DNA from: Desulfobacteraceae bacterium
GTDB lineage: Bacteria > Desulfobacterota > Desulfobacteria > Desulfobacterales > JAABSP01
Assembly: GCA_011390345.1 (NCBI GenBank)
Contig: JAABSP010000012.1
Location: forward strand, 7,846-71,845
Direction of reading: 5' to 3'
DNA length: 64,000 nt
Shown here: piece by piece, positions 15,961 to 58,525 of the stretch
Layout of the letters: each line of letters starts with the position of its first letter
Numbering within the stretch: the first letter of the stretch is position 1
Translations under genes and position numbers: made by a program
The notes under the pieces: generated by a model
Seen by the model: only the letters and a program-made list of their open reading frames with translations
The model's database searches: none
Told to the model about the DNA's origin: nothing

Positions 15961-15964
15961 ATCT

Positions 15965-38860: not shown

Positions 38861-41800
38861 ATGAAGTACCGTGATCTTATCCGTTTTCAACCCATCGAAA
38901 ACCTCCTTCGGATCGATGACACCGCAGATCCGCAGACCGCAGCAGCGCTTGCCGATACATTCGCCGTCTCTTTGGAGACCCGGGCCGCAATCGCAGAAAG
39001 AATCCTGCCGCAGCTTCACCTGGAACCGCCGGGCCGGGGAATCCTTTTGATGGGAAGCTACGGAACCGGCAAGACCCATCTGATGTCGCTGATCGCAGGC
39101 GTTGCAGAGGGAACCCTTCCCCCTGAGGCATTGAGGGATCAGCAGTGCGCAAGGGCAGCCGCTGCCATCGAGGGACGATACAAGGTGGTACGGGCCGCGG
39201 TGGAGCCATCGATCCAGCCGCTTCGAGAACTTCTGCTGGCAGAAATCCAGGGCTATCTGCTCCAGGAGGATGCCATCGATGATGAGCATCCCGAATTGCC
39301 CGTCTCCCCGGATTCCTTTGATCGGATCATGGAAAAATTCAACAGCCGGTTTCCGGATCATGCGCTTCTGCTGCTGGTGGACGGTCTGACCGATTATCTC
39401 AAGGCCCGAAGCGAATCGGCTCTGGCTTCAGACATTGAATTTCTGTCGGAACTGAGCCGGATGGGAGAGAAGAATGCTTTCCGGATCATGGCGGGATTGC
39501 GGGAGATCGGCCATGACAGGGGCGGCAGAGAAGGCCGGGGAGAAGATACGGTCTCTGCTGAATGGCCCCAGTTTCAGGAGCAGGTCTTCGGGCTCCAGGA
39601 TCATTTCGAAACTCTCCGCCTCACGGAGCGGGACCTCGATGGAATCGTGGCAAACCGGCTTCTGGGCATTACCGCGGAAAACCTCGAGCGCATCAGAGCG
39701 CACCTGGAACCCTTCATCCCCTGCTACAGCAACCTGGAAAATGATCCGGATACCTTTGCCCATCTTTTCCCGTTTCATCCGGAAACGGTTGAGATGCTGG
39801 CCCAGATCTCGATGCTGGGAAGAGAGCCGGTGCTCCGGATGCTGTCGGACATCCTCTCTCCCTATCTGGACCGGGATCTGCCAGAAGATGAGCCGGGAAT
39901 AATCACCTGCGATGCGTGCTGGCTCTTCATCAAGGCCAATCCCGCCTTCAGCGCAATTCCGGATGTGAAATCGGTGATCGACTGCAATCAGCTCATCGAG
40001 TCGCGCATCCAGCGCAGCTTCACGCCGGTCGAGCACCGGGAGCTGGCCGTCAGAATCATCCGGGCTCTGTCCATGCACCGGCTCACAACCGGCGGAATTC
40101 ATATCCGAAAGGGGATCTCTCCCAAAGCGCTTCGGGATCTCATCCTTCCATCGCCCGCTTTGATCAGGAACCGGCAGGGAGATCCCGCAGAACAACTGCT
40201 CCAGCGGGTCGATTCCGTGCTGGGAGAATTGATGAAGACCCTTGACGGGCAGTTTCTCTCCCGCCACTCTCTGAGCAATCAGTATTTCATCGATCTGAAA
40301 AAGACCGAGAACTTTGACGCCAACATCGAAAAGCGGACAAAGGATCTCACCCCTCCTCTGCTGGACCGGTACTACTACGAGGTGCTAAAGCGCACCATGG
40401 AATGCACCTATGACACCTATGTCTCGGGATACCGGATCTGGTATCACGATCTGCAATGGTATGAACGAAACGCCTCCAGAAAAGGATACCTCATCTTTGG
40501 CTCCCCTGACGAAGGAACCTCCCGGATTCCCCGGCTCGACTTCAAGATCTACTTTATCCAGCCCTTTGTCCCGCCCGAATTCGACGACAGTCCGGGGGCA
40601 GGGGAGGTCTTTCTCCGGATCTCCCGGGGCAGCGCCTATTTCTGGAATCTGCTCAAAAGTTATGCCGCGGCTATGGAGTTGGCGTCGGAAACAGGGGATC
40701 ATGCGGAGTTCATCTATGAGATCAAGGCATCGGGATTTTTGAAAAAGCTGCTCCGGTGGCTGGATGACAACCTGAGCCCGGCCTTTGAACTGATCTACCG
40801 GGGCCGCTCCGCCTCTCTGCTCCGGTGGGCCGAGGGGCACAACATCCGGGAACTCTCCCGGATATCTCCCAATGAGCGGATCAACTTCAAGAATTTCGTC
40901 AATACGGTCTGCGGCATTGTCCTCTCCCGCCATTTTTCGGACCAGGCCCCGGCCTACCCTTTCTTTCCGATTCCCATTCCGGCTGCGGACCGGGGTCGGG
41001 TGGCGCAGGAGGCGCTATGGGGAATTGCCGGCGGAAGGTTCTCCCCCGAGTCCCGAACGGTGATGGAGGGGCTGGAGCTGATGAACGACCGGGGGCAGGT
41101 GGAGCCCATGCGCTCACGGTATGGCCGCTTTATGCTCCGAACGGTGGATGAACAGGGAGATGAGGGGCGGCTCTATCGATCAAAGCTCATCATCGATATC
41201 GGCGGGGCCGTCTATATGGCCCCGGAGGATGTCCGTCTGGAAGCTGAATGGGCCATAGTCCTGCTGGCCGCCTTTATCTACTCCGGAGATCTCGTGCTGG
41301 TACTCTCCAGAGGCCGGTTCGACGCGGGCCGGCTCTCGGATCTTGCGGCCCGCCCCCTTCCGGAGCTGATGAATTTCGAATTCGTCGAACACTCCCGGGA
41401 ATGGAACCCCGCGCTGGTCCGGGATATCTTCGATCTTCTGAAACTGCCGGCCCATCTTTCCCAGTTGGTTTTTCAGGGAAAGAGGGAGCCGATTGAAAAG
41501 CTTCGGATCCGTCTGGAAAAGCTCTTTGAGGAGATCGAAGGGGCTCAGGAAATCCTCTCCTCGCAGATTTCCTTCTGGGGGGCTGTCCTCATCCATGAGA
41601 ATCAGATTGGGATATTCAGGGGCCAGCTTGATGATCTGACAGACTTTGCAAGGCGGCTGATGGGATATGTCCTGGCCGAAAACCTGAAGGACTTCTCCTG
41701 CAAGGCGTCGGAATTCGAAGAGTGCAAAAAGGGAATGGAGGTACTCATCGAGCTGCTCTCCCTTCAGGAATTCGTGCGGGACATGGGAGAGCTGACCAGC

Positions 41801-42616
41801 TTTCTCACCGCGGCAGGGGCCGCGTTTTTGGAAAAGGATGAGTGGGTTCGGCAGATGCGGGGAGTGAAAAGCGAACTTCTAACCCGAATCTCCCGGTTCG
41901 GTGAGCACCGGACCCCCCAGTTCCGAAACGGAACATTTCAGCGGCTCCGGCAGCTCAAGGGCTCTTATATCGATGCGTATCTCTATCTCCATGGTATGGC
42001 CCGACTCAGTGGCGACGAAGAGAAGCAGCGCCAGGAGTTGCTCCGATCCGATCCCCGGCTCCAAAAGCTGAGGCAACTGGCCAAGATACCGCTGATGCCG
42101 GCAAATGGGCTTTCCGAGCTGATCGCAAGGCTGGAGGAATTGATCACCTGCACCCAGTTGACCGAAGGGGATCTGCGCCACTATCCCCTTTGCCCCCACT
42201 GCTTTTTCAAACCAGCAGCAGAGCCGCTTTCGATCACTGCAGGCAAGAAGCTGGAGCGTCTGAATGCAGAAATCGACCGATTAACCCAGACCTGGACCAA
42301 GACCTTGCAAACCCATTTCTCTGCCTTTTCCGACGGAGAGGTCTCCCTGATGCTCCCCCGGTCCGTGACCCGGTTTGCCGAGGACATGCAGGAGAAGGGA
42401 GAGCTTCCGGATGATATCTCCGATGACTTCATCCGGGAGATGATAGATCTTTTCGCAGCCTATCCAAAACAGGAACTTCCCATGGAACGGATCAAAGCCG
42501 CGCTGGAGGCCGAGGGAAATCCGGCCTCTCCGGCCGACCTGAAGCGCCTCTTTTCCGCATTGCTGGATGAGATGAGCGGTGAGGACGGGGATCGGGTGCG
42601 GATCGAGATCGCCTGA
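38861..42616 (+). CDS. 1251-aa P-loop NTPase resembling the BrxC/PglY-DUF6079 class of large defence-associated ATPases
   Basis: The N-terminal block is YRDLIRFQPIENLLRIDD...ADTFAVS. Walker A is GSYGTGKTH (aa 65-72). The Walker B-like motif is ALLLLVDGLTDYL. A very long helical remainder ends with a CPHC motif near the C-terminus. The family call is from memory of this architecture, not from a search. Confidence 0.6.
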   Translation: MKYRDLIRFQPIENLLRIDDTADPQTAAALADTFAVSLETRAAIAERILPQLHLEPPGRGILLMGSYGTGKTHLMSLIAGVAEGTLPPEALRDQQCARAAAAIEGRYKVVRAAVEPSIQPLRELLLAEIQGYLLQEDAIDDEHPELPVSPDSFDRIMEKFNSRFPDHALLLLVDGLTDYLKARSESALASDIEFLSELSRMGEKNAFRIMAGLREIGHDRGGREGRGEDTVSAEWPQFQEQVFGLQDHFETLRLTERDLDGIVANRLLGITAENLERIRAHLEPFIPCYSNLENDPDTFAHLFPFHPETVEMLAQISMLGREPVLRMLSDILSPYLDRDLPEDEPGIITCDACWLFIKANPAFSAIPDVKSVIDCNQLIESRIQRSFTPVEHRELAVRIIRALSMHRLTTGGIHIRKGISPKALRDLILPSPALIRNRQGDPAEQLLQRVDSVLGELMKTLDGQFLSRHSLSNQYFIDLKKTENFDANIEKRTKDLTPPLLDRYYYEVLKRTMECTYDTYVSGYRIWYHDLQWYERNASRKGYLIFGSPDEGTSRIPRLDFKIYFIQPFVPPEFDDSPGAGEVFLRISRGSAYFWNLLKSYAAAMELASETGDHAEFIYEIKASGFLKKLLRWLDDNLSPAFELIYRGRSASLLRWAEGHNIRELSRISPNERINFKNFVNTVCGIVLSRHFSDQAPAYPFFPIPIPAADRGRVAQEALWGIAGGRFSPESRTVMEGLELMNDRGQVEPMRSRYGRFMLRTVDEQGDEGRLYRSKLIIDIGGAVYMAPEDVRLEAEWAIVLLAAFIYSGDLVLVLSRGRFDAGRLSDLAARPLPELMNFEFVEHSREWNPALVRDIFDLLKLPAHLSQLVFQGKREPIEKLRIRLEKLFEEIEGAQEILSSQISFWGAVLIHENQIGIFRGQLDDLTDFARRLMGYVLAENLKDFSCKASEFEECKKGMEVLIELLSLQEFVRDMGELTSFLTAAGAAFLEKDEWVRQMRGVKSELLTRISRFGEHRTPQFRNGTFQRLRQLKGSYIDAYLYLHGMARLSGDEEKQRQELLRSDPRLQKLRQLAKIPLMPANGLSELIARLEELITCTQLTEGDLRHYPLCPHCFFKPAAEPLSITAGKKLERLNAEIDRLTQTWTKTLQTHFSAFSDGEVSLMLPRSVTRFAEDMQEKGELPDDISDDFIREMIDLFAAYPKQELPMERIKAALEAEGNPASPADLKRLFSALLDEMSGEDGDRVRIEIA

Positions 42617-42721
42617 AGATGAAGTTCAAAAATCGATGAAGGATTATCACCCCCATTCTACCTGAAAAAAGAGCTGTTCACACGGAGATATCCACAGCCG
42701 GAAATACTCACAGGAGGAACC

Positions 42722-43264
42722 ATGTTCTACGAGATATTGAAGAGACGAAGAAGCATCCGCAAGTTTCAGGATAGGGAGATCGAGGATAATCAGATCGAGC
42801 TGCTGCTCAAGGCCGCGCTCCTCTCCCCCTCCTCCCGGGGGATCCGGCCCTGGGAATTCATCATGATCGAAGATGCAAAGACCCTGGAGACCCTTGCCGG
42901 GTCCAAGCCCCACGGCGCAGGGTTTTTGAAGGGCGCGGCCGTCGGCATCGCGATCATCGCAGAGACCTCCAAATCGGACGTCTGGGTGGAGGACACATCC
43001 ATTGCCGCTGCCATTCTGCTGCTCATGGCCGAAGAGCTGGGGATGGGCGCGTGCTGGTGTCAGATCCGGAACCGGAAGTACGACGAGAAGTCCTCGGCCT
43101 CGGATTTCGTCCGAAAGACCCTTCAGATCCCGGACAAGTACGAAGTGGAGGCGATCATCGGTATAGGATATCCGGACGAGCAGAAGCGGCCTTATGTGGA
43201 CCAGGATCTGCTCTATGACAAGGTGCATCAGGGGATCTTCGGCCGGAAGCGGTATGAGGCATGA
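42722..43264 (+). CDS. nitroreductase-family FMN oxidoreductase
   Basis: The pattern RRSIRKFQDREIEDNQIELLLKAALLSPSSRGIRPWEF...GMGACW...IGIGYP matches the family. The stop overlaps the next ATG as ATGA. Confidence 0.88.
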   Translation: MFYEILKRRRSIRKFQDREIEDNQIELLLKAALLSPSSRGIRPWEFIMIEDAKTLETLAGSKPHGAGFLKGAAVGIAIIAETSKSDVWVEDTSIAAAILLLMAEELGMGACWCQIRNRKYDEKSSASDFVRKTLQIPDKYEVEAIIGIGYPDEQKRPYVDQDLLYDKVHQGIFGRKRYEA

Positions 43265-46200
43265 CCGAACCGAAAAATTACCCCAGGCTGGACCCGAAAC
43301 TGGAGAAGCTGCTGGAAAAGGCCGATGTAAAGCCCCTGGACATCAGCGAGGCCATCTGGCAGCCACTTGCCCAGAACATCCCCGCACAGCAGAACCTGGT
43401 CGTCACGACGCCCGGAAGAGCTGAAAAGACGGTCATCGCAGTGACCATTGCCGCCATCCTGTCCAGGTATGTGGAACGGATCTGGTATGTGGAGCCCCGG
43501 AGGGAAACGGATGACTACCGAACCTTCCGGATCTCCGCGGCCCTCTCCCATATCGGAACATCGACCTTCACCCGAGGGGAAGGGGGTGATTTCAATGCCC
43601 CGGTGCTGATCTGGCCCCTCGACATGGTGCTGGATCATTTGGCCGATCTCGAGGACATCCCCTGGCCCGGGGCTTTGATCTTAAACGGGCTGGAGCGGAT
43701 GGATCACCCACAGGACGGGGCGTTGATGGAGGCCCTGCTCCTTGCCCTGCCGGCCGACATTCCCGTTGCTGGGGTCGGAAGCGGGATTGCAAACATCGAT
43801 GCCGTGGCCAGTTGGCTGGAGACCCTCAAGGGACGGCCCTGCCGCAGCTATCACGCAGATATCGAGCCGATGCCCCGGATTCCGGCCTTTCTGACCTCGG
43901 AATGGGAACTGCTGCCTCTGCTGGACAGAAAAAAGCTCTCGGGAAGGGTAAAGCGGAGCCTGAAAGAACTGTCGCCCTTTGATGCCGACTCCCCCAAGTT
44001 CATGCGCGAGCTGCTGGAATTTTTAGGGGCCGGCTTCGGCCCTGCCCTGGCGGTTGCGGCCGCGCCCGGTGAGTGTGACAGTGCGGTTTTCAGAGGCCCA
44101 AAGGCCGCGAAAAAGGCCGGGGACCCCCTGACCGAACCTCTGGTGAGCCGCATTCTGGACCAGAACCCGGACATCAAGGAGGCCCCCCTGCTCAAGGAGG
44201 TGCTGGCCCGGCGGATCGGTACGGTCCACGAGAACCACCATCCCCTCTGGAACCGGCTCATGGAGCACCTCATGGCTATGGATGGACTGGATCTGATCGT
44301 CGGAACCCCGGGAACCCTTTCGGAGATGGATGTCCGTACAAAGAGTGTACTCTTTCTTGCATCGGAAACTCCGGAGCCCCACAAGGAGGCAGAGGAGATA
44401 TCCCACTGGGACGGGAACCGGATCATTCGGCTTGCGGGGCGCCGCGGGGTCGATGATGCCGGGTGGGTCATCGCGGTCCACGAGTCAGACACGGACCCGG
44501 TTCGGATCAAGGATCTCTTTCTGGCCGACGAGCATTCCCTCTCGGGCGCGTTCCGGTGCGATTTCCGGACGGTGCTGGCGCTCTGCAGCCAGGCACGCTT
44601 CGGCGTTCCAAAAGATATGCTGGAGAGATCCTTCACCGGAGACGCGGAAGAGCCGTTTACCGGCTTCGACCTCTCTGAGTTCCGGCAGGGTCTTGCAGAA
44701 GAGATCCCCAATGCCCGGTGCAGCGGCCACATCCAGTCGGTATCCGCGCTGAAGGATCTGCGGATTCGGCTGACTTTGGAGATGACGCGGATCGAAGATA
44801 CCCATCCCCGGGAGGCAAAGGGGAAAGAGGCTGCGCTGAAGCGGCGCCTCCAAGAGCTGGAGACCTTTCTGCCGGAGCTTCCCTGCGAGGGCTGCGACCA
44901 TTTCTCCCTCTGCCACGGCCGGGGCACCAAGACCTTCCGGGCACTGATGGAACAGTACTATGAAAACCTGGAGCCGTTGAAGGAGAGCCGCGCCGGGCTG
45001 CTACTCGACCTGGACCACCGGATCGAGTCTCTGCGGGCCTTCGGTTTGATCGATGATGAGGACAGGCTCACGGAAATGGGAAAGAGTGCCCTCAGAACCG
45101 GCCTGGAGACGCCCCAGCCCCTGGTGGAATGCCTGCGGCAGGGGGTTTTCGAGGATCTGGAGCCGCAGATCGCGATCGCCCTGGCCGGCGGGTTCATCGA
45201 AATGGGGGAATGGCGGCCCAAACCCCATATGGAAGAGAATCTGAGAAGCTTTTTTTCCGATCTGGAACCGGTCTATGCGAAGATGGAACCGGCCATCGAC
45301 AGTGCCCGAAGGGAGATGCTCCGCTTCGGCTTTGCCGTCAAAGCGCCGTCGCCCCAGCAGTCGGCCATCATCCTGGCCTGGACCGGGGAAACCGATGAAC
45401 GGACTCTGAAGCAGTACACGGGGATTCCCATGGGGCCCCTCGCGGAACTGATCCGGAGGACCCGGTATCTCTGCCGGCAGTTGAACATCGGACCGCTCTC
45501 AGGGGTCTGCCATACGGATGATCGAATCGACGACCGCTCAACCGGGGAAGAGGATATCAAAGAGGGAGAAAACGCTCCGATCAGGGAAAAGGAAAGGGAT
45601 GAAAATATGATGCAGCCGCTCGTCTATCGGATTCATCTGGAGCCGGATCCGGACCGGTTCCGGTTCTCAGGAAATGTAAAGATCCGTTTTCAGGTCCGAA
45701 AGCCTTCGGATACCATTGTACTGAACATTCTGGATCTTGCGGTCTGGCGCTGCGAGATCCTCCGGGACGGGGAAAAGATCCCCTGCGCCTTCTCTGCGGA
45801 GCCCCGGAAGGAGGAACTGATCATTACCCTTCCGGAGCCGGCCGAGGGCGAGATCGAAATCTTCATCGAATATGAAGGGAACATCAACGACCAGATGGCC
45901 GGGTTCTATCGGAGCGGCTACAAGGTCGGGGAGGAGACCCGGTACATCGCAGTGACCCAGTTCCAGGAGAGCGATGCCCGAAGGGTCTTTCCCTGCATGG
46001 ACCACCCGCAGCAGAAGGCCGTCTTCGAGATCGAGATGGTCTGTGACCGGCGACTCACCCCGATCGCGAACACCCTGCCGGTCGAAGAGCGGAAGATCGA
46101 TGAGAACCGGCGGCTGACCCGTTTCGCGCCGACGCCCAAGATGTCAACCTATCTCCTCTTCATGGGGATCGGCGAGTTCGACATCGTCGGGGATTCGGAG

Positions 46201-48078
46201 GACCCGAGGATTCGGGTGATCACGACCCCGGGTCTCACCAGGTACGGAAAGCTTGGGCTCGATTTCGGGAAAAAGGCGCTGCAGTACTGCGAGGAATATT
46301 ACGACATCCCCTTCCCCCTGCCCAAGCTGGATCAGATCGCAGTCCCCGACTTCGCGTTCGGCGCGATGGAGAACTGGGGCGCGATCACCTACCGGGAGAA
46401 CCTGCTCCTCGATTTTCCCGAGATCACCTCCAAGGCGGGCCGTGAGCGGATCTGCGAGGTGATCGCGCACGAGACCGCGCACCAGTGGTTCGGCAACCTG
46501 GTCACGCCGTCGGACTGGAAATACCTCTGGCTCAACGAGAGCTTTGCCACCTATTTCGGCTTCGGGGTGGTGGATCACTACTATCCGGAATGGGAGATCT
46601 GGGATCAGTTCATCCATACCGAGACCCATGTGGCCCTGGTGCGGGATGCTCTGCATGAGACCTTTCCCATCGAGATTCCGGGCGGCGAGCATGTGGTCAT
46701 AAACGCGAGCACAGCGCCCATCATCTACAACAAAGGGGGCAGCATTCTCCGGCAGGTCGAGGGGTATATCGGAACCGAGAGCTTTCAGGGTGGGCTGAGA
46801 AGCTATCTGAAGAAGTTCGAATACGGATGCGCTTCCAGCCATGATCTCTGGGACGCGCTGGCCGCGGCATCGGATGCCCCCATCACCCGGATGATGAAGG
46901 GATGGGTGGAGCAGCCGGGATTTCCGGTCATCGAGGCCCGGCGGGACAGCGATGAGCTGACCCTGACCCAGCGCAGATTTACCTATCTGCCCAATGATTC
47001 GGAGCAGGTCTGGCCCGTGCCGGTGATCCTGCGCCTCTTCGATGAAAAAGGGGAATCGAGGGCCGAGACGATCCTTCTGGAAAAAGTTTCTGAGACGATA
47101 CCGATAGATCCGGGCACCACAGCCTTCAAGATCAACGACGGCCAGACCGGCTTCTATCGGGTCCGGTATGAGGAGAAGGATCTGGAAAACCTGGCCCCGC
47201 TGGTGAAGGAGAAAGTACTCTCTCCCCAGGACCGGTGGGGGCTGGAGAGCGATCTATACGAGCAGGTCAAGGCCGCAAACCTGACGCCGGATAAGTACCT
47301 CGATTTCCTGGATCACTACAGGGATGAGGATGCCTTCCTCCCCCTGGTGAGCATCGCGGGCAACCTCTTCGGCTCCTATCTGATCCTTTCGGAGAAGTGG
47401 AAAGAGCGGATTGCGTCAACCGCAAAGGGGATTTTCGAGCCGCTGCTCGCCAGGATCGGATATGAGCCCGCGGAAGATGAGCCCCACACCACTTCCCTGC
47501 TCCGGGACCGGATCATCTGGCCTCTGGCTCTTTACGGATCGGATGAGACGCGGGAATTCTGCCGGAAGAGGTTTTCGGTTCTACAGTCCGGCGGAAGAGT
47601 CCATCCGGATATTGCAAAGAGTGTGATGCAGGTGGCCGCGCTATCGGGCGGAGAGGAGGTCTGGGAATGGCTGATCAACCGGCTGAAGAGTACCGAGAGC
47701 GAGCATGAGCGGATGAACATCCTGATCGCGATGGGCTGTTTTTCTGATAAGTCGCTGATCGACCGGGCAAAGGAGTATATTCTGGAAAAAGTCCCCAGCC
47801 GCAACCGGTTCGTGCCCATCTCCGCGCTGACCATGAATCCCCATGCCATTCCCGATATGTGGAACTGGTATCAGGAGAACCTGCGCGCGCTGGAGGCATT
47901 TCACCCGATCCATTACGAGCGGGTGATCGAATCGATCATGCCGGTCTGCGGGCTGGTCAGTCCCGATGCGGTGAAGGCGTTCTTCAAGGAGTATGGGAGC
48001 AAGAAGCCGGCGTTCAAGGATATAATCAACCTCTCTCTGGAGAAGCTGGAGATCAACCTGCGGATGGCGGAGATGTAA
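43261..48078 (+). CDS. single 1605-aa ORF: degenerate Ski2/HelY-like helicase (aa 1-~770) fused in frame to an M1-family aminopeptidase (aa ~783-1605)
   Basis: The N-terminal half keeps Ski2-like landmarks (IGTVHENHHP...GLDLIVGTPGTLSEMDV; LAGRRGVDDAGWVIAV) and a DSHCT-like end. Its Walker A reads TTPGRAEKT and the DEVH position reads NGLE. The C-terminal half has intact M1 motifs GAMENWG, HETAHQWFGNLV and WLNESFA plus an ERAP1-like C-domain. No stop codon separates the halves. Confidence 0.85.
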   Translation: MTEPKNYPRLDPKLEKLLEKADVKPLDISEAIWQPLAQNIPAQQNLVVTTPGRAEKTVIAVTIAAILSRYVERIWYVEPRRETDDYRTFRISAALSHIGTSTFTRGEGGDFNAPVLIWPLDMVLDHLADLEDIPWPGALILNGLERMDHPQDGALMEALLLALPADIPVAGVGSGIANIDAVASWLETLKGRPCRSYHADIEPMPRIPAFLTSEWELLPLLDRKKLSGRVKRSLKELSPFDADSPKFMRELLEFLGAGFGPALAVAAAPGECDSAVFRGPKAAKKAGDPLTEPLVSRILDQNPDIKEAPLLKEVLARRIGTVHENHHPLWNRLMEHLMAMDGLDLIVGTPGTLSEMDVRTKSVLFLASETPEPHKEAEEISHWDGNRIIRLAGRRGVDDAGWVIAVHESDTDPVRIKDLFLADEHSLSGAFRCDFRTVLALCSQARFGVPKDMLERSFTGDAEEPFTGFDLSEFRQGLAEEIPNARCSGHIQSVSALKDLRIRLTLEMTRIEDTHPREAKGKEAALKRRLQELETFLPELPCEGCDHFSLCHGRGTKTFRALMEQYYENLEPLKESRAGLLLDLDHRIESLRAFGLIDDEDRLTEMGKSALRTGLETPQPLVECLRQGVFEDLEPQIAIALAGGFIEMGEWRPKPHMEENLRSFFSDLEPVYAKMEPAIDSARREMLRFGFAVKAPSPQQSAIILAWTGETDERTLKQYTGIPMGPLAELIRRTRYLCRQLNIGPLSGVCHTDDRIDDRSTGEEDIKEGENAPIREKERDENMMQPLVYRIHLEPDPDRFRFSGNVKIRFQVRKPSDTIVLNILDLAVWRCEILRDGEKIPCAFSAEPRKEELIITLPEPAEGEIEIFIEYEGNINDQMAGFYRSGYKVGEETRYIAVTQFQESDARRVFPCMDHPQQKAVFEIEMVCDRRLTPIANTLPVEERKIDENRRLTRFAPTPKMSTYLLFMGIGEFDIVGDSEDPRIRVITTPGLTRYGKLGLDFGKKALQYCEEYYDIPFPLPKLDQIAVPDFAFGAMENWGAITYRENLLLDFPEITSKAGRERICEVIAHETAHQWFGNLVTPSDWKYLWLNESFATYFGFGVVDHYYPEWEIWDQFIHTETHVALVRDALHETFPIEIPGGEHVVINASTAPIIYNKGGSILRQVEGYIGTESFQGGLRSYLKKFEYGCASSHDLWDALAAASDAPITRMMKGWVEQPGFPVIEARRDSDELTLTQRRFTYLPNDSEQVWPVPVILRLFDEKGESRAETILLEKVSETIPIDPGTTAFKINDGQTGFYRVRYEEKDLENLAPLVKEKVLSPQDRWGLESDLYEQVKAANLTPDKYLDFLDHYRDEDAFLPLVSIAGNLFGSYLILSEKWKERIASTAKGIFEPLLARIGYEPAEDEPHTTSLLRDRIIWPLALYGSDETREFCRKRFSVLQSGGRVHPDIAKSVMQVAALSGGEEVWEWLINRLKSTESEHERMNILIAMGCFSDKSLIDRAKEYILEKVPSRNRFVPISALTMNPHAIPDMWNWYQENLRALEAFHPIHYERVIESIMPVCGLVSPDAVKAFFKEYGSKKPAFKDIINLSLEKLEINLRMAEM

Positions 48079-48093
48079 GCACCCGAAACCATA

Positions 48094-48675
48094 TTATACG
48101 CCGAAGACCGCGTCCAGATCGATGACAAGCCCCTCGATGGATGCGGTCTTTTTGCTTCCGCCCTCCAGAATTTCCGTTGCGCCATATCGGCCGTCAGGCC
48201 CCAGGATACGAACGTAGAGAATATTATCCGCCGGATGAATGATCCAGTACTCTTTTACACCATGTTTTTCGTATAAGGAGAGCTTCCGGATCTGATCCTT
48301 GGCCGCAGTGGAAGGCGACAGGATTTCGATGATGAAATCCGGCGCGCCCCGACACCCCCGGTCATCGACCTTTGAAGAATCACAGACCACGGAAAAATCC
48401 GGCTGCACAACGGTGATGATCTCGTCATCCGCCTCATTCTTCTCCGGTAGCCGGACATCGAAGGGCGCAATATAGGGAATACACTCGCTGTCCTGTAAAT
48501 GATTGCTGATCTGACGGCCCAGTTCCAACAGGATTCGCTGATGACGTGGATGGGGTGCAGGACTCATATCATAAGGAACCCCTTGGATCAGCTCACATCG
48601 TTCCTCATCGGGCCAGTTTCGGTAATCTCTATAGGTTAGGATCTCTTTTTCGTTTTTCAAGCTCGGCATCGACAT
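48094..48675 (-). CDS. Uma2-family (DUF820) restriction-endonuclease-fold protein, copy 1
   Basis: ...WPDEERCELIQGVPYDMSPAPHPRHQ...VVQPDFSVVCD...GAPDFIIEILSPSTAAKDQIRKLSLYEKHGVKEYWII contains the PD-(D/E)xK core. Confidence 0.85.
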   Translation of the reverse strand: MSMPSLKNEKEILTYRDYRNWPDEERCELIQGVPYDMSPAPHPRHQRILLELGRQISNHLQDSECIPYIAPFDVRLPEKNEADDEIITVVQPDFSVVCDSSKVDDRGCRGAPDFIIEILSPSTAAKDQIRKLSLYEKHGVKEYWIIHPADNILYVRILGPDGRYGATEILEGGSKKTASIEGLVIDLDAVFGV

Positions 48676-48734
48676 GGCATTTGCTCACCCTTTGAAATTG
48701 TTGAATGGCCGGGATGTAAGCGCCCCAAACCGTT

Positions 48735-49316
48735 TCATACGCTGAAGACCGCGTCCAGATCGATGATAAGTTCCGGAACGGCTGCGATCTTTTTGCTTCC
48801 GCCCACCACGATTTCCGACACACCGTATCGACCGTCGGGGCCGAGGGTCCGGACATAGAGGATGTTGTCCGTGGGATGGATGATCCAATACTCTTTCACC
48901 CCATGCTTTTCGTAGAGCGAGAGCTTCCGGGTCTGATCCTTGGCTGCGGTCGACGGCGACAGGATTTCGATGATGAAATCCGGCGCGCCCCGACACCCCC
49001 GGTCATCGACCTTTGAAGAATCACAGACGACCGCAAGATCCGGCTGGACAACGGTGATGATCTCGTCATCGGCCTCATCCTTCTCAGGAAGCCGGAAATC
49101 GTAGGGCGCCACAAAGAGCCTGCAGTCTCTGTTCATTAAACATCGGAAAATCTGGTAGTTCAGCGCCACAAGGATCTCCTGATGGCGGGTATTGGGTGCA
49201 GGACTCATATCATAAGGAACCCCTTGGATCAGCTCCCATCGTTCCTCTCCGGGCCAGTTCCGGTAATCCCCATAGGTGAGGATCTCTTTTTCGTTTTTCA
49301 GATTCGGCATCGACAT
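48735..49316 (-). CDS. Uma2-family (DUF820) restriction-endonuclease-fold protein, copy 2
   Basis: This is a paralog of copy 1. The start is set at ATG 49316 (MSMPNLKNEK), preceded by AAAGGAGAG at 8 nt, matching the copy 1 start context. The track start at 49343 is an upstream extension. Confidence 0.85.
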   Translation of the reverse strand: MSMPNLKNEKEILTYGDYRNWPGEERWELIQGVPYDMSPAPNTRHQEILVALNYQIFRCLMNRDCRLFVAPYDFRLPEKDEADDEIITVVQPDLAVVCDSSKVDDRGCRGAPDFIIEILSPSTAAKDQTRKLSLYEKHGVKEYWIIHPTDNILYVRTLGPDGRYGVSEIVVGGSKKIAAVPELIIDLDAVFSV

Positions 49317-49346
49317 GGCATTTGCTCTCCTTTTCATGCTCATCTA

Positions 49347-49404
49347 TTTTTTAAGAACAGAATCTTTTCCAAGACTTTTTTAAGAATAGAATCTTTTCCA
49401 AGAC
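49347..49404. repeat. tandem 29-bp direct repeat (TTTTTTAAGAAYAGAATCTTTTCCAAGAC x2)
   Basis: Copies at 49347..49375 and 49376..49404 differ at one position (C/T). The repeat lies in the divergent Uma2/moaC intergenic region. Confidence 0.75.
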
Positions 49405-51805: not shown

Positions 51806-52583
51806 GGAAGAGGACAAGATTCCCTTTACCGAGCATCTGGAGGAGCTTAGAACCCGGCTGATCAACTCCTTTATCGCTGTCTTCATCGGCTTTTTCATCT
51901 GCTACTTCTTCAAGGAAACTCTTTTCCAGATTCTCACCGCGCCGCTGATTGCGGTCATGGGCGAGGGGGACAAGCTGATCTTCACCAATCTGCCCGAGGC
52001 CTTCTTCACCTACCTGAAGGTGGCCTTGCTGGCCGGGATCATGCTGGCCGCGCCCTTCCTTTTCTACCAGTTCTGGATGTTCGTCGCGCCGGGCCTCTAT
52101 CAGAAGGAGCGCCGGATTCTGATCCCCATCGTTCTTCTCTCTTCGATCTTCTTTGTGGGGGGCGCGCTCTTCGGCTATTTCATCGTCTTCCCCTGGGGTT
52201 TCAAATTCTTTTTAGGGTTTGCAAGCGAGACTATCCGGCCCCTTCCCTCCATGAAGGAGTATCTGAGTTTTTCCAGCAAGCTGCTGATCGCGTTCGGCGT
52301 AGTCTTCGAGCTTCCCCTGGTGCTCACCTTCATGGCCCGGCTGGGGATGGTTTCGGTCGATTTTCTGAAGAAGAACCGAAAATATGCGCTGCTGCTCTTT
52401 TTTATCGGTTCGGCCATTCTCACCCCGCCCGATGTGGTGACGCAGGTGATGATGGCGCTTCCCCTGATGCTGCTCTACGAGGTCAGCATCATCGGCGCGC
52501 GGATCTTTGGCCGGAAGCCTTTGGATGCGGATTTGCCGGACATGGATGAGGATGAATTGAAACAGAAGAAAGATAAAGCATGA
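51798..52583 (+). CDS. tatC: twin-arginine translocase subunit TatC
   Basis: FTEHLEELRTRLI..., six TM helices, ...LTPPDVVTQ... It overlaps tatA/B by 8 nt. Confidence 0.93.
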   Translation: MLREEDKIPFTEHLEELRTRLINSFIAVFIGFFICYFFKETLFQILTAPLIAVMGEGDKLIFTNLPEAFFTYLKVALLAGIMLAAPFLFYQFWMFVAPGLYQKERRILIPIVLLSSIFFVGGALFGYFIVFPWGFKFFLGFASETIRPLPSMKEYLSFSSKLLIAFGVVFELPLVLTFMARLGMVSVDFLKKNRKYALLLFFIGSAILTPPDVVTQVMMALPLMLLYEVSIIGARIFGRKPLDADLPDMDEDELKQKKDKA

Positions 52584-54337
52584 CAGACAACGATAAACCG
52601 ATCCAGCGGGAAACCTTCGACGATTTCAACTACCCTCTTCCCATGGAATATCTTCTGGAGCTGGAGGATACTTCGGCAAGCTCCGGATATTTCGGCTGCG
52701 TCCCAAAGGAAGAGCGGGTTTTCAGCGCGGGGCTGGCCTATTTAAGAGAACGGCCCTATGATGAGTTTCTCCATAAAAGGCTCCTCAATGCAATGCAGGT
52801 GCTGCCCCAGAGCCGGATCGTGGAGTGGATCAAGGAGACCGGGCCGGGCGCGGAAAAGGAGGCGGACAAGGTCTTCCGGGCCATGCTCTATGAAGCCTGT
52901 ATCCTCTACGAGCGATTCAATCCCCTGCTGTGGCGCTTCAAGGCCGAAGAGATCGAAGAACTTGCGGCCCATACGCCGCTGGTCTATATCAAATCGGTCA
53001 ATATGCCGGATCATGAGCTGCACCTGCAGTGGATGGGGGCGTTTGCAGGAAACATCGGAAAGCACCAGCTCCTGCCGAAATCTGCCGATGCCGGGGTCTC
53101 CTTTCCGGTATCGGATGAGGCCATCAAAGCCGCAGAGGGTATCGTTCCGGTGCAAAAGATCCGGCTTCAATTCAAAAGCGATGAGAAGATCATGGCCTGT
53201 GCGCCCCAGCCCCCGGAAACCGTGGCGCAGGAGGCGATCACCCGGCTGGAGCGGATGGGTGTTCTGGAAGGACCCGAGATGCGCCACATGACCTCCCTTT
53301 CTCCGATGGGGCTTCTCCGGAAATGGCATATGGGGCTTCGGGTGGTCAACGGCCGCCTCGACTATCTTCTCTCGGGAATCCAGACCTCCTATGGCCGGGG
53401 GATCGACGAGAATTCGGCCCGGGCCTCCTGCGCGATGGAGGTGGCCGAGCGGGTCTCCTCTTTTGCCGGCATCGGGGATCAGGGGGTGCTGGATCGGACC
53501 TATACCTATCCCCTCACCCATGCCCGGTACAGCAGACTGAAAAATGACGGGATCGAGGCCCTGGACCCGAACCGGCTCCATCTGGAGGCCCCATACCATG
53601 ACGAGCCCCTCTACTGGATCTCCGGAGAGCGGGCACACGGGACCGCGGTTCTGGTGCCGGCCCAGTGCGTCTTTCTCTTTGCCAACCTGGATGAAATCTC
53701 CCTCTTCTCCGGGCTCGGCTCAACAGGGCTGGCCTCGGGAACCACGTTGACAGGGGCCAAGGTGAGCGCGCTGCTGGAGTGCATCGAGCGGGATGCCGAG
53801 GGAACCACGCCCTTTCATCTGGAGGGTTGCTTTATCCTGGAAACCGATGATCCCGAGATCTCAAAACTTCTTGGGGAATACCGGGAAAAGGGGGTGCAGG
53901 TCTGGTTTCAGGAAATCACCTCGGCCTTTGGGGTTCCCTGCTTTAAATCCTTTGTGATCGGCCCAGACGGCGAGATTGCAAAGGGTGTGGGCGCGCATCT
54001 CAACGGCCGGCGGGCGCTTCTCTCCGCGATGACCGAAACGCCCTACCCTTTTCCGTCGGGGCCCCCCTCACTGCCGGGGCCGCCCGATCTTCCGGCTCGA
54101 AAACTGGAGGATCTGCCGGACTTCTCCACGGGCCGTGCCGAGACCGATCTTCAGCTTCTGGAGGCGCTGCTGACGGAAAACCGCGCCGCGCCCATATATG
54201 TGGAGATCACCCGGACAGACCTCTCCATTCCCGTTGTCCGAGCCATTGTTCCGGGGCTTGCCCTGTCTGCCGATTTTGACCGCTTCTCCAGGGTTCACCC
54301 CCGGCTCTTTGCCAACTATCTCAGGATGTACGGGTAA
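52580..54337 (+). CDS. YcaO-domain protein with ~210-aa unassigned N-terminal domain
   Basis: The YcaO core is SYGRGIDENSARASCAMEVAERVSSFAG...GLASGTTLTGAKVSALLECIERDA...FGVPCF... The ATG overlaps the tatC stop (ATGA at 52580..52583). Confidence 0.88.
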   Translation: MTDNDKPIQRETFDDFNYPLPMEYLLELEDTSASSGYFGCVPKEERVFSAGLAYLRERPYDEFLHKRLLNAMQVLPQSRIVEWIKETGPGAEKEADKVFRAMLYEACILYERFNPLLWRFKAEEIEELAAHTPLVYIKSVNMPDHELHLQWMGAFAGNIGKHQLLPKSADAGVSFPVSDEAIKAAEGIVPVQKIRLQFKSDEKIMACAPQPPETVAQEAITRLERMGVLEGPEMRHMTSLSPMGLLRKWHMGLRVVNGRLDYLLSGIQTSYGRGIDENSARASCAMEVAERVSSFAGIGDQGVLDRTYTYPLTHARYSRLKNDGIEALDPNRLHLEAPYHDEPLYWISGERAHGTAVLVPAQCVFLFANLDEISLFSGLGSTGLASGTTLTGAKVSALLECIERDAEGTTPFHLEGCFILETDDPEISKLLGEYREKGVQVWFQEITSAFGVPCFKSFVIGPDGEIAKGVGAHLNGRRALLSAMTETPYPFPSGPPSLPGPPDLPARKLEDLPDFSTGRAETDLQLLEALLTENRAAPIYVEITRTDLSIPVVRAIVPGLALSADFDRFSRVHPRLFANYLRMYG

Positions 54338-56352: not shown

Positions 56353-57030
56353 ATGGAACAAATGGAGGATGTTTTGAAATCCATCGCCAAACCCATCATT
56401 TCCCTTCTCACCCTGCTCGTCCTTCTGCTGCTCTTTACGGGATGCCAGAAGACCTATTACGCGTTCTGGGAGAAGCTCGGCAAGGAGAAGCGCCACCTGC
56501 TAAAAGACAATGTGGAGGATGCCAAGGACGCGCAGGAGGAGGCATCCGAGGAGTTCAAGGAGGTGCTGACCCGGATCAAGGAGATCTACGGATTCGAAGG
56601 CGGAGAGCTGGAGGAATTCTACGTTCAGTTGAAGAGCGATTACGAGGGCGCCCAGAATCGGGCACAGGCCGTCAGAGCCCGGATCAAGGAGGCTGAGGCG
56701 ATCGCGGGAGACCTCTTTGCGGAGTGGGAGGCCGAGATCGAGCGGATGGACAACGCCAAATTCCGGGCCAACAGCCGGGAATCCCTGCGCGAGACCCGCA
56801 GACGCTTTCAAAACCTCCACAAGACCATGACCAAAGCCCAGGCCAAAATGACTCCGGTGCTGGACGAGCTGGAGGATTATGTACTCTATCTGAAGCACAA
56901 CCTGAACGCCAGGGCCATCGGAGTACTTCGGCAGGAGGCCGCTGGCATCGAGATCGAAGTCCAGTCCCTGATCGACGATATCCGCAGCTCGGTTCAGGAG
57001 GCCGATGAATTCCTGAAGTCGATGGAATAG
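56353..57030 (+). CDS. DUF2959-family lipoprotein
   Basis: The lipobox is LLFTGC. It is followed by YYAFWEKLGKEKRHLL.DNVEDA and a helical body typical of DUF2959. Confidence 0.7.
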   Translation: MEQMEDVLKSIAKPIISLLTLLVLLLLFTGCQKTYYAFWEKLGKEKRHLLKDNVEDAKDAQEEASEEFKEVLTRIKEIYGFEGGELEEFYVQLKSDYEGAQNRAQAVRARIKEAEAIAGDLFAEWEAEIERMDNAKFRANSRESLRETRRRFQNLHKTMTKAQAKMTPVLDELEDYVLYLKHNLNARAIGVLRQEAAGIEIEVQSLIDDIRSSVQEADEFLKSME

Positions 57031-57696
57031 ATGGCAATAGACGATCCCAAAGATCCGATCCTGATCCTGGCGTCCCAGTCCCCCCGGCGACGCTATCTGC
57101 TGGAACAGGCTGGGCTTTCCTTTTCGGTAATTCCCAGCCGTTTCGACGAGGAGGCCGTTCCCTTCAAACCCGGGGATGCGCCCGAAGACTATGTCCGGAA
57201 GCTGGCCCAGGGAAAGGCCCTCGAGGTATCTGCCCGATACCCCCGCAGTTGGATCATCGGCGCGGACACAACAGTCATGATCCAAGGCAAAAACCTGGGG
57301 AAGCCTTCTTCGAATGCAGAAGCCTTTGAAATGCTCAAACAGCTCAGCGGCGAGACCCATGAAGTTCATACCGGATTCTGCATCTGTTCGGAGAGCGCGG
57401 AAAAGCGGTTTTCCCAATCCGTTCGAACCGAAGTGCTTTTCAAAGAGCTGACCCATGCCGAGATCGACTGGTACATCAAGACCGGCGAGCCCTTTGACAA
57501 AGCCGGTGGATACGGCATACAGGGAGTCGGGATTATTCTGGTGAGAAGCATCAACGGCTCCTACACCAACGTGGTGGGGCTGCCGGTCTGCGAGGTGATC
57601 GAGACCCTGATCCGGGAGGGGATTGCGGGATTCTGCAGCGGGAACGGCTTTGATCTGAACCGGCCCGAAAATGTCTCTTCCGGAGCGTTCGGATAA
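57031..57696 (+). CDS. maf: Maf-family nucleoside triphosphate pyrophosphatase
   Basis: ILASQSPRRRYLLEQAG...IGADT...KAGGYGIQG. Confidence 0.92.
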   Translation: MAIDDPKDPILILASQSPRRRYLLEQAGLSFSVIPSRFDEEAVPFKPGDAPEDYVRKLAQGKALEVSARYPRSWIIGADTTVMIQGKNLGKPSSNAEAFEMLKQLSGETHEVHTGFCICSESAEKRFSQSVRTEVLFKELTHAEIDWYIKTGEPFDKAGGYGIQGVGIILVRSINGSYTNVVGLPVCEVIETLIREGIAGFCSGNGFDLNRPENVSSGAFG

Positions 57697-57905
57697 TCGT
57701 AAATTTAAGTAAAAATCGTAAATATCAAAAATTTAAAAATGTTACAAAACATGAAGTTTGGAAAGCTTGAAAAAGCATGGCGAACCTATACCTCCGTCAA
57801 TATACGAAAAAAATCGATTATCAAACGAAATCTTGCGTGGATGGTGATTTGTGGCTGGTGGTTAAGCGTTTTATTACAGGCAAAAAAACAGTTATAAAAA
57901 GTTAA

Positions 57906-58220: not shown

Positions 58221-58229
58221 ATAAGAGAG

Positions 58230-58484: not shown

Positions 58485-58525
58485 AGGGCATGTAGAGCTA
58501 CATCTCAAAATTGAACCATAGGAAA

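What the first reader, a model, noticed from the sequence alone, without database searches (positions are those of the whole stretch)
38861..49316. Possible defence/surveillance island: BrxC/PglY-like giant ATPase + nitroreductase + pseudo-helicase::peptidase + two Uma2 nucleases
A 10.5-kb block lies between the core genes lysC and moaC. Its plus-strand genes are as follows.
- A 1251-aa P-loop protein has an N-terminus and Walker A/B arrangement (GSYGTGKTH ... LLLLVDGLTDYL) resembling the BrxC/PglY-DUF6079 class found in BREX-type loci.
- A nitroreductase follows 105 nt later.
- The helicase-like::M1 fusion is coupled to the nitroreductase by an ATGA overlap.

Two tandem Uma2 (PD-(D/E)xK) genes follow on the opposite strand.

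None of the canonical partners is present: no PglX methyltransferase, PglZ, BrxA/B/L or DUF1998. This is therefore not a known BREX or DISARM arrangement. The combination of large ATPase, redox enzyme, nucleic-acid-binding scaffold, protease and nucleases is the kind of mix seen in uncharacterised anti-phage loci. It could equally be three unrelated insertions.
Basis: inference. Interest (0 to 1): 0.65.

Follow-up and report, generated by a model that had tools for sequence, protein, structure and literature searches.

The report
Orphan dead BrxC beside unrelated genes
The five genes are real, but they are not a recognisable anti-phage system: a lone BREX-type ATPase that has lost its partners and its catalytic residues sits beside an ordinary nitroreductase, a one-off fusion of a dead helicase to an aminopeptidase, and two duplicated nuclease genes, with ordinary housekeeping genes all around.

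Summary

The 1251-aa protein is a full-length BrxC (Pfam DUF6079, E 2.7e-291; PADLOC BrxC, 1032 bits). It is an orphan: no PglZ, PglX or BrxA/B/L was found in the 64 kb. It is also catalytically eroded:
- The Walker B Glu is Gly, whereas all 46 homologues have DE.
- Both arginine-finger positions are lost.
- 40 of 128 near-invariant family positions are changed, against 0-21 in other members.

Three of its closest relatives (32-36% identity) sit in BREX-type loci.

The helicase-like half of the 1605-aa protein has a complete Mtr4/Ski2 fold with dead motifs. It belongs to a family of standalone ~740-aa proteins that share no conserved neighbour. Only this protein is fused to M1. Relatives of the M1 half are standalone, and an internal ribosome-binding site and ATG remain, so the fusion probably arose by loss of a stop codon.

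The nitroreductase is ordinary. The two Uma2 genes are a tandem duplication that matches only a PADLOC candidate family.

No synteny of the trio was found anywhere. Codon usage is host-like, and the window shows no mobile-element marks and no neighbouring defence genes.

Best reading: a mosaic of unrelated genes, not a defence system. Interest is low to moderate.

The parts
38861..42616 (+). Orphan BrxC/PglY-family AAA+ protein (DUF6079), 1251 aa. The ORF is intact and all family domains are present.
   Evidence: Pfam PF19557 covers residues 1-1250, E 2.7e-291. PADLOC BrxC model PDLC02482 scores 1032 bits. The precomputed domain set PF26383-PF26388 is present. The closest homologue is only 36-37% identical.
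39053..39076 (+). BrxC Walker A motif (G65-T72, GSYGTGKT), intact.
   Evidence: Alignment with 46 homologues. Y67, G68, G70, K71 and H73 are invariant columns.
39365..39385 (+). BrxC Walker B motif (L169-G175, LLLLVDG). The catalytic Glu is replaced by Gly (E175G).
   Evidence: All 46 homologues have hhhhDE. The position aligns to the LFLVDE stretch of the solved BrxC chain 9zn5. The E->Q mutation at this residue sharply reduces BrxC ATPase activity but leaves ATP-dependent DNA binding (PMC13326643).
39587..39604 (+). BrxC arginine-finger region. The family consensus VRRVKDRF reads VFGLQDHF here (G244 and H248), so both basic residues are lost. A 16-residue insertion unique to this protein lies just upstream (about residues 220-235).
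   Evidence: Column-by-column comparison. The positions were mapped to Acinetobacter BrxC K326/R330 through the 9zn5 alignment and the paper.
42722..43264 (+). Small FMN nitroreductase-family protein, 180 aa, with a strong ribosome-binding site (AGGAGG). Its stop codon overlaps the start of the next gene (ATGA).
   Evidence: Pfam PF00881, E 2.9e-24. Solved structure 5j6c 'putative reductase', E 1e-55. Sequence read directly.
43261..45498 (+). Pseudo-helicase module of the fusion protein (residues 1-746). It has a complete Mtr4/Ski2-type fold: RecA1, RecA2 and a DSHCT-type C-terminal region, with no arch insertion.
   Evidence: phmmer against solved Mtr4 chains, E 1.8e-13, in three segments. 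AlphaFold2 model with pLDDT 85.9 and pTM 0.85. Foldseek best hits are Mtr4, FRH and Ski2, E 5.6e-27. It belongs to a standalone ~740-aa family.
43411..43431 (+). Eroded helicase motif I (P51-T57, PGRAEKT, in place of PTGxGKT).
   Evidence: Alignments with family members and with intact helicases.
43684..43695 (+). Eroded helicase motif II (N142-E145, NGLE, in place of DExH).
   Evidence: Alignments.
44719..44913 (+). Conserved four-cysteine set (C487, C542, C545, C551; LPCEGCDHFSLCH), a probable metal-binding site.
   Evidence: Invariant in the 18-member family alignment. Also present in most of the ~900-aa relatives that keep active helicase motifs.
45499..45606 (+). Linker of the fusion (residues 747-782), acidic and predicted to be disordered. 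It probably derives from the former intergenic spacer. An RBS-like GGAAAGGGA lies at 45591-45599.
   Evidence: pLDDT about 30 for residues 747-780. Family members end near residue 745. DNA read directly.
45607..48078 (+). M1 aminopeptidase module (residues 783-1605), with GAMEN, HETAH...E and the YxKG Tyr intact. It starts at two internal ATG codons retained in frame.
   Evidence: Pfam M1_N, M1 and ERAP1_C. Solved puromycin-sensitive aminopeptidase, E 2.8e-133; tricorn-interacting factor F3, E 3.4e-107. Standalone relatives at 50-60% identity begin at residue ~784. Motifs read from the translation.
48094..48675 (-). Uma2 (PD-(D/E)xK) gene, copy a, 193 aa, convergent with the fusion gene (15-nt gap).
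   Evidence: Pfam PF05685, E 4e-32. PADLOC candidate family PDC-S03, E 4.2e-48. Sequence read directly.
48735..49343 (-). Uma2 gene, copy b. It is a tandem duplicate of copy a, and its likely true start is 49316.
   Evidence: 79% amino-acid identity to copy a. 641-nt direct repeat unit, 83-85% DNA identity. Pfam and PADLOC hits.

Best explanation
The block is a mosaic of three independent pieces, not one system.

(1) A long-resident, orphaned BrxC.
- It has lost its BREX partners and its ATP-hydrolysis machinery: the Walker B Glu is Gly and both arginine fingers are gone.
- It keeps the P-loop and every downstream domain.
- Inferred: it still binds nucleotide and DNA as a non-hydrolysing protein whose role is unknown.
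- It cannot run a BREX-type reaction alone, because that needs PglZ and PglX.

(2) A two-gene operon.
- It encodes an ordinary FMN nitroreductase, translationally coupled to a lineage-specific fusion protein.
- The fusion arose when a standalone Ski2/Mtr4-fold pseudo-helicase gene lost its stop codon and read through a spacer of roughly 35 codons into the neighbouring M1 aminopeptidase gene.
- The aminopeptidase half is predicted to be catalytically competent. It may also be made on its own from the retained internal ribosome-binding site and ATG (inferred).

(3) A recent tandem duplication of a Uma2 nuclease-fold gene.

Shown: gene identities, motif states, the absence of partner genes among the ORFs tested in the window, the absence of synteny elsewhere, host-like codon usage, and the anatomy of the fusion.

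Inferred: what the eroded BrxC still does, the route by which the fusion arose, and the independence of the three pieces.
For: BrxC identity and erosion:
- Family assignment.
- DG in place of DE, against 46 of 46 homologues.
- Arginine-finger positions G244 and H248 in place of basic residues, mapped through the solved chain 9zn5 and PMC13326643.
- 40 of 128 near-invariant columns changed, against 0-21 for the 24 other members in a leave-one-out test.
- The change is densest in residues 131-340, at 44%.

Orphan status:
- No PglZ, PglX or BrxA/B/L among the ORFs tested in the 64 kb.
- Homologues P0005 and P0006 sit in loci of small ORF, BrxC, N6_N4 methyltransferase, PglZ. P0002 sits in a similar locus with the methyltransferase and a helicase.

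Long residence:
- Codon-usage distance is 0.061 for BrxC and 0.069-0.102 for the nitroreductase and the fusion, within the range of core genes.
- No flanking direct repeats and no tRNA gene at the block. No integrase or transposase domain in any ORF tested.

Fusion:
- Exhaustive HMMER search finds 43 clusters at E<=1e-30. Among the 150 best listed, the ~740-aa pseudo-helicase-type members are standalone and only the window protein carries an M1 half.
- M1 relatives start at residue ~784 and have no pseudo-helicase upstream.
- The internal RBS and ATG are retained, and the linker is predicted to be disordered.
- The same fusion ORF is present in two independent read-set assemblies, and a third contig ends inside it.

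No shared neighbours:
- Five pseudo-helicase contexts.
- M1 contexts.

Other pieces:
- Ordinary nitroreductase.
- Uma2 duplication.
Against: - The 105-nt BrxC-nitroreductase gap holds no predicted terminator. BrxC could therefore be co-transcribed with the two downstream genes.
- Two large pseudo-NTPases side by side, followed by nucleases, is an unusual coincidence.
- Three of the five pseudo-helicase contexts have conflict-type genes within a few kb: a type IIG restriction-modification gene, PemK with a TIR-NACHT protein, and MoxR-VWA.
- The Uma2 genes match a PADLOC candidate family.
- The lineage is poorly sampled (best LysC match 82%), so absence of synteny is weak negative evidence.
- The rest of the genome, including the contig beyond the window, could not be inspected for PglZ or PglX.
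Confidence: 0.6

Rival explanations
1. The plus-strand trio, with or without the Uma2 genes, is a new BREX-derived defence module. The non-hydrolysing BrxC and the dead Ski2-type helicase act as nucleic-acid sensors or scaffolds. The M1 aminopeptidase, and perhaps the nucleases, act as effectors. The nitroreductase is an accessory.
For: - Same strand, a short gap without a terminator, and an ATGA overlap.
- BrxC is a bona fide defence-family protein.
- Inactive NTPase modules are recurrent in BREX components, and a Ski2-like helicase (BrxHI) belongs to type 2 BREX (paper 10.1101/2025.10.09.681413).
- Uma2 matches PADLOC PDC-S03.
- Some pseudo-helicase relatives lie near conflict-type genes.
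Against: - The gene combination is not conserved anywhere searched.
- The fusion protein has no PADLOC hit, so it does not match the BrxHI or HamB models.
- The M1 half is a generic aminopeptidase of the PSA/F3 type, and the nitroreductase is a generic enzyme.
- The neighbourhood is housekeeping.
- The fusion looks like an accidental stop loss with the second gene's start signals still in place.
Confidence: 0.08
2. This BrxC is a split-off component that works in trans with PglZ, PglX and other BREX genes encoded elsewhere in the same genome.
For: - The ORF is intact, with the complete domain set and the P-loop.
- The genome outside the window was not available. The NCBI contig is 81 kb, of which the window shows 64 kb.
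Against: - The three BrxC relatives whose BREX-type loci could be read have the partner genes immediately adjacent.
- The catalytic Glu and both arginine fingers, which the BrxC study reports as well conserved across BrxC species, are lost.
- Nothing BREX-like lies among the ORFs tested within 38 kb upstream or 21 kb downstream.
Confidence: 0.07
3. This BrxC is a functionless relic on its way to becoming a pseudogene, and the fusion is a neutral accident. Nothing in the block apart from the aminopeptidase, the nitroreductase and the Uma2 genes does anything.
For: - Loss of partners and of catalytic residues.
- An exceptional number of changes at conserved positions.
Against: - A 3.7-kb ORF without a single stop or frameshift still aligns end to end with the family profile at only ~36% identity.
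- 88 of 128 near-invariant positions are kept, including the whole Walker A motif.
- Codon usage is fully host-like.
- Together these indicate continued purifying selection (inference).
Confidence: 0.2

Closest known systems
BrxC/PglY AAA+ ATPase of BREX systems (Pfam DUF6079/PF19557; PADLOC BrxC model PDLC02482)
   Same: Full-length, end-to-end match to the family profile. All six DUF6079 sub-domains are present, the Walker A motif is intact, and the length is similar.
   Different: - No PglZ, PglX, BrxA/B/L or upstream small ORF.
- Walker B DE reads DG, both arginine-finger residues are lost, and there is a 16-residue insertion after the sensor-1 region.
- 40 of 128 near-invariant positions are changed.
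- It lies in a housekeeping neighbourhood.
Ski2/Mtr4-type DExH helicases (solved Mtr4, FRH and Ski2) and their bacterial ~900-aa relatives that carry a DSHCT domain
   Same: The same overall fold: RecA1, RecA2 and a DSHCT-type C-terminal region. The four-cysteine motif is shared with the bacterial relatives that keep active motifs.
   Different: - Motif I reads PGRAEKT, motif II reads NGLE, and motif III is lost.
- There is no arch/KOW insertion.
- The module belongs to a ~740-aa family in which these motifs are eroded in most members.
- Here, and only here, it is fused to an M1 peptidase.
M1 aminopeptidases of the puromycin-sensitive aminopeptidase / tricorn-interacting factor F3 / PepN type
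   Same: The four-domain architecture (M1_N, catalytic domain, ERAP1_C), with GAMEN and HExxH-E motifs intact.
   Different: It carries a 780-residue N-terminal extension (pseudo-helicase plus linker). The closest relatives, at 50-60% identity, are standalone proteins of about 820 aa.
Uma2 family (PF05685) / PADLOC candidate system PDC-S03
   Same: Full-length HMM matches for both copies.
   Different: PDC-S03 is only a candidate family; from my own knowledge, it is not experimentally validated. The two copies here are a local tandem duplication with no further defence neighbours.
BREX-related variants described in 10.1101/2025.10.09.681413 (DUF499-centred BR systems; the HerA/FtsK-centred system with DUF6079 and PglZ)
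   Same: A BrxC-type ATPase occurs outside a canonical BREX operon.
   Different: Those systems keep a methyltransferase with a helicase, or PglZ with STAND, DUF4007, HerA, GNAT and TGT. No such partner appeared among the ORFs tested here. The paper does not mention a nitroreductase or an aminopeptidase.

Membership tests
BREX system (any type) | BrxC/PglY-type ATPase present | tested here: met
   PF19557, E 2.7e-291; PADLOC BrxC, 1032 bits.
BREX system (any type) | PglZ alkaline-phosphatase-fold protein in the locus | tested here: not met
   No PF08665 hit in any ORF tested across the 64-kb window. Homologue loci L107 and L108 do carry it.
BREX system (any type) | A modification enzyme in the locus (PglX/PglXI methyltransferase, or BrxP) | tested here: not met
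   No N6_Mtase, N6_N4_Mtase or PAPS-reductase domain in the ORFs tested.
BREX system (any type) | Accessory genes BrxA, BrxB, BrxL, BrxF or BrxH adjacent | tested here: not met
   PADLOC gave no such hit for the block proteins. There is no plus-strand ORF in the 237-nt spacer upstream of BrxC.
BrxC family as an active AAA+ ATPase | Walker A GxxGxGK[ST] | tested here: met
   GSYGTGKT at residues 65-72.
BrxC family as an active AAA+ ATPase | Walker B hhhhDE with the catalytic Glu | tested here: not met
   LLLLVDG here; 46 of 46 homologues have DE.
BrxC family as an active AAA+ ATPase | Trans-acting basic 'arginine finger' residues (Acinetobacter BrxC K326/R330) | tested here: not met
   G244 and H248 lie at the aligned positions.
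Ski2-like DExH helicase | Two RecA domains followed by the Ski2/Mtr4-type C-terminal (DSHCT) region | tested here: met
   AlphaFold2 model with pLDDT 85.9; Foldseek hit to Mtr4 at E 5.6e-27.
Ski2-like DExH helicase | Motif I (GxGKT) and motif II (DExH) | tested here: not met
   PGRAEKT and NGLE.
M1 zinc aminopeptidase | GAMEN exopeptidase motif and HExxH-x18-E zinc site | tested here: met
   GAMEN and HETAH...WLNES are read in the translation. Pfam Peptidase_M1, E 6.2e-68.
DISARM | DrmA (helicase with DUF1998), DrmB (DUF1998) and DrmC or a methyltransferase | tested here: not met
   No PADLOC or Pfam hit of these kinds in the block proteins.
Defence island (operational) | Several known defence genes clustered nearby | tested here: not met
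   The neighbours tested are housekeeping genes. The only other PADLOC hit among the ten further ORFs scanned is a weak LeoA match about 31 kb away.
Defence island (operational) | Variable or mobile region: foreign composition, integrase, tRNA gene or flanking repeats | tested here: inconclusive
   The lysC-proximal side differs in each of the three relatives annotated. However, codon usage is host-like, and there are no flanking repeats, integrase or tRNA gene at the block.

The most novel reading that the evidence does not exclude
A BREX-derived BrxC that can no longer hydrolyse ATP has been co-opted, together with a dead Ski2-type helicase fused to an M1 aminopeptidase and a nitroreductase, into a new nucleic-acid-sensing module with a peptidase effector. 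This would be a BrxC-centred system that needs neither PglZ nor a methyltransferase.
Probability: 0.08. Interest if true: 0.7.

Novelty: new variant of a known kind. Interest (0 to 1): 0.3.

Why it matters
If the eroded BrxC is functional, it would be a natural version of the Walker-B mutant used in vitro, which still binds DNA but hydrolyses little ATP. It would also be a rare case of a BREX core component surviving without PglZ or PglX, and so a handle on what BrxC does by itself.

The pseudo-helicase family, with its conserved four-cysteine site, has no family model of its own (only a weak Pfam DSHCT match) and may deserve one.

As a defence-system lead, the locus is weak. It shows that a strong single-gene BrxC hit plus 'interesting' neighbours is not enough to call a system.

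Tried and rejected
- **Link between BrxC and the pseudo-helicase.** I asked whether the pseudo-helicase family is linked to BrxC, a nitroreductase or M1. Five contexts (L006, L102, L105, L106, L109) share no partner with each other, and none of them contains BrxC, a nitroreductase or M1.
- **Pseudo-helicase or nitroreductase upstream of M1 relatives.** tblastn on 12 metagenome loci found only the M1 half. Their neighbours are metabolic genes.
- **Profile search of the word-indexed protein database with the family alignment.** One context look-up (P0057) found nothing on record.
- **Plasmid search with the pseudo-helicase.** No match.
- **Solved BrxC structures by single-sequence search.** None at E 0.01. 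A profile search did reach 9zn5.
- **Rfam scan.** Only the distant tRNA-Ala gene.
- **Promoter and terminator scan.** Nothing above the shuffled background inside the block.
- **Flanking repeats.** Only short chance-level matches besides the Uma2 duplication.
- **Literature searches for Uma2 and defence, and for bacterial HelY.** Nothing useful.
- **Synteny between P0055's locus and the window.** The loci share the pseudo-helicase, a T2SSE-type gene and a weak OppB-like match, but none of the genes between the pseudo-helicase and T2SSE is shared, so I rejected real synteny.
- **SagB/McbC-type dehydrogenase.** I considered this role for the nitroreductase because of the two YcaO genes in the window. 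NCBIfam and the solved structures point to a generic small nitroreductase instead.

Full report
**Observation.**
- Pfam and PADLOC confirm each assignment:
  - The 1251-aa protein matches DUF6079/BrxC-PglY over its whole length (E 2.7e-291; PADLOC BrxC 1032 bits).
  - The 180-aa protein is a nitroreductase.
  - The 1605-aa protein carries a complete M1 aminopeptidase (M1_N, M1, ERAP1_C) at residues 785-1597, plus a weak DSHCT match at 601-742.
  - The two minus-strand genes are Uma2.
- The 105-nt gap and the ATGA overlap are read directly.
- The flanking genes are lysC and moaC/mltA.
- The ORFs tested in the rest of the 64 kb are housekeeping: an oligopeptide ABC transporter, SurA, CLC, tatBC, two YcaO genes, Maf, YggS, QueH, and a type-I-secretion adhesin cluster. 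The only other PADLOC hit among the ten further ORFs scanned is a weak LeoA match about 31 kb away.
- LysC similarity (best 82%) places the organism in the Desulfobacterales.

**BrxC.** A recent comparative study finds DUF6079 to be the top profile match for canonical BrxC (10.1101/2025.10.09.681413).
- Of 5.8 billion clustered proteins, the closest relative apart from the identical sequence is only 36-37% identical.
- Three of the closest relatives whose loci could be read lie in BREX-type loci. P0005 and P0006 have small ORF, BrxC, (SLFN/HATPase_c_4), N6_N4 methyltransferase, PglZ, and a protein of about 250 aa. P0002 has the methyltransferase and a helicase on the stretch read.
- The window copy has none of these partners. 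It has also lost its catalytic apparatus:
  - Walker A (GSYGTGKT) is intact.
  - Walker B reads LLLLVDG, where all 46 aligned homologues have DE.
  - A profile built from the family reaches the solved BrxC-BrxB chain 9zn5. That alignment confirms the Walker B position.
  - The same alignment, read with the BrxC study (PMC13326643), maps the two arginine-finger residues (K326/R330 in Acinetobacter BrxC) to G244 and H248 here.
  - A 16-residue insertion follows the sensor-1 region.
- Overall, 40 of 128 near-invariant family columns are changed, against 0-21 (typically 2-5) for the 24 other members in a leave-one-out test.
- The changes are densest in residues 131-340, at 44% of conserved columns against about 25% elsewhere.
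- The ORF is nevertheless uninterrupted, aligns end to end with the profile, keeps 88 of the 128 conserved positions, and has host-like codon usage (distance 0.061).
- I infer a long-resident protein still under selection for fold and for nucleotide or DNA binding, but not for ATP turnover.
- Experimentally, the BrxC Walker B E->Q mutant retains ATP-dependent DNA binding.

**Nitroreductase and fusion protein.** The nitroreductase is a generic small FMN enzyme (solved 5j6c, E 1e-55).
- Residues 1-746 of the fusion protein match Mtr4/Ski2 helicases in three segments.
- They fold with high confidence (pLDDT 85.9, pTM 0.85) into an Mtr4/Ski2-type core without the arch (Foldseek E 5.6e-27).
- An exhaustive HMMER search of 1.84 billion representatives finds 43 clusters at E<=1e-30. 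Among the 150 best listed, the pseudo-helicase-type members are standalone proteins of about 740 aa, and only the window protein (P0054) is fused to M1.
- In this family motifs I, II and III are eroded in most members (here PGRAEKT and NGLE). A four-cysteine motif (C487, C542, C545, C551) is invariant in the 18-member family alignment and shared with most ~900-aa relatives that keep GSGKT, DEAH, SAT and GRAGRRG.
- Five family contexts share no neighbour with each other, and none contains BrxC, a nitroreductase or M1.
- The M1 half is closest to puromycin-sensitive aminopeptidase and tricorn-interacting factor F3, with intact GAMEN and HExxH-E motifs.
- Its relatives at 50-60% identity are standalone, start at residue ~784, have no pseudo-helicase upstream and sit among metabolic genes.
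- The fusion anatomy fits the loss of a stop codon between two adjacent genes:
  - Family members end near residue 745.
  - Residues 747-780 are predicted to be disordered.
  - An RBS-like GGAAAGGGA and two ATG codons are retained at 45591-45612.
- The same fusion ORF appears in two independent read-set assemblies, and a third contig ends inside it. One assembly has a single amino-acid difference, so the fusion is not an assembly error.

**Uma2 genes.** The two copies are 79% identical and form a 641-nt tandem repeat. They match PADLOC's candidate family PDC-S03, which to my knowledge is not experimentally validated. Their GC3 is somewhat lower than the surroundings.

**Context.**
- In the two closest relatives, lysC, the aminotransferase, CLC and SurA remain syntenic.
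- The other side of lysC differs in each of the three relatives annotated (a PKS; an MCP gene and a trypsin-like peptidase gene; a STAND-kinase). It never carries BrxC, the nitroreductase, the fusion, Uma2 or moaC.
- The junction is therefore a synteny breakpoint. At this divergence that says little.
- There are no flanking repeats and no tRNA gene at the block, and no integrase domain in any ORF tested.

**Interpretation.** The most economical reading (confidence about 0.6) is a mosaic:
- an orphaned, non-hydrolysing BrxC of unknown residual role;
- an unrelated nitroreductase plus pseudo-helicase::M1 operon created by a lineage-specific fusion;
- a duplicated Uma2 gene.

The rival readings are:
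- a genuinely new BrxC-centred module (about 0.08);
- BrxC acting in trans with a distant BREX locus (about 0.07);
- a functionless relic (about 0.2).

Points that keep the novel reading alive:
- BrxC may be co-transcribed with the two downstream genes, since the gap holds no terminator.
- Two pseudo-NTPases lie side by side.
- Conflict-type genes lie near some pseudo-helicase relatives.
- The lineage is poorly sampled.

**Comparison and verdict.**
- As a protein, the ATPase is a member of the BrxC family by sequence. It fails the tests for an active AAA+ ATPase (Walker B Glu, arginine fingers).
- The locus fails every BREX membership test except the presence of BrxC, and it fails the DISARM tests.
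- The helicase-like module has the Ski2 fold but fails the motif tests.
- The M1 module passes its tests.
- The finding is best filed as a new variant of a known kind (an orphan, eroded BrxC) beside a one-off gene fusion.
- Interest is 0.3: real and mildly unusual, but without any evidence of a system.

Noticed in passing
window 43261-45498 (+); relatives P0052, P0055-P0084; loci L006, L102, L105, L106, L109: An uncharacterised family of ~740-aa standalone Ski2/Mtr4-fold pseudo-helicases with eroded ATPase motifs. The search found 43 clusters at E<=1e-30, including related helicases. A four-cysteine motif (LPCExCxHxxxCH plus one upstream Cys) is invariant in the 18-member family alignment. Pfam covers these proteins only through a weak DSHCT match. 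The motif is shared with most ~900-aa relatives that keep active helicase motifs.
   Followed up: partly
P0051 (879 aa; homologue list, compared): This protein starts with the first ~16 residues of BrxC and skips the whole P-loop core. It continues with BrxC residues 262-485 (35% identity) and then runs into cytochrome b and multihaem cytochrome c domains. It is another BrxC fragment living outside BREX, or a gene-calling artefact.
   Followed up: partly
window 3180-4925 (+) and 52580-54337 (+): Two YcaO-domain genes. The first is fused to TPR repeats. The start of the second overlaps the stop of tatC, and an AAA_28 gene follows it. No RiPP partner genes were identified.
   Followed up: no
window 11416-22831 (-): A type-I-secretion-like cluster: two HlyD proteins, an M50-HlyD fusion, an OEP protein and a 1531-aa cadherin/Big_9 repeat adhesin.
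   Followed up: no
window 5195-7546 (-): A 783-aa dynamin-family GTPase with a weak match to PADLOC LeoA (E 1.2e-11). It is isolated, with no LeoB/C-type partners among the ORFs tested.
   Followed up: partly
window 57000-59000: A low-GC stretch (0.45-0.48, against about 0.57 elsewhere). It contains an ORF at 57963-58436 (-) with no Pfam or PADLOC hit.
   Followed up: partly
window 49347-49404: Two tandem copies, one mismatch apart, of a 29-nt unit (TTTTTTAAGAAYAGAATCTTTTCCAAGAC) in the spacer between Uma2b and moaC. The moaC start is more likely the ATG at 49502, which has a GGGAGGG ribosome-binding site, than the listed TTG at 49438.
   Followed up: no
L102 3018-6002 (-), L105 6435-11475 (-), L006 7922-9889 (-): Three of the five pseudo-helicase family contexts have conflict-type genes within a few kb: an MmeI/Eco57I-type methyltransferase-endonuclease, a PemK toxin pair with a TIR-NACHT-FGE protein, and a MoxR-VWA protein. 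The sample is too small to tell whether this exceeds chance.
   Followed up: no
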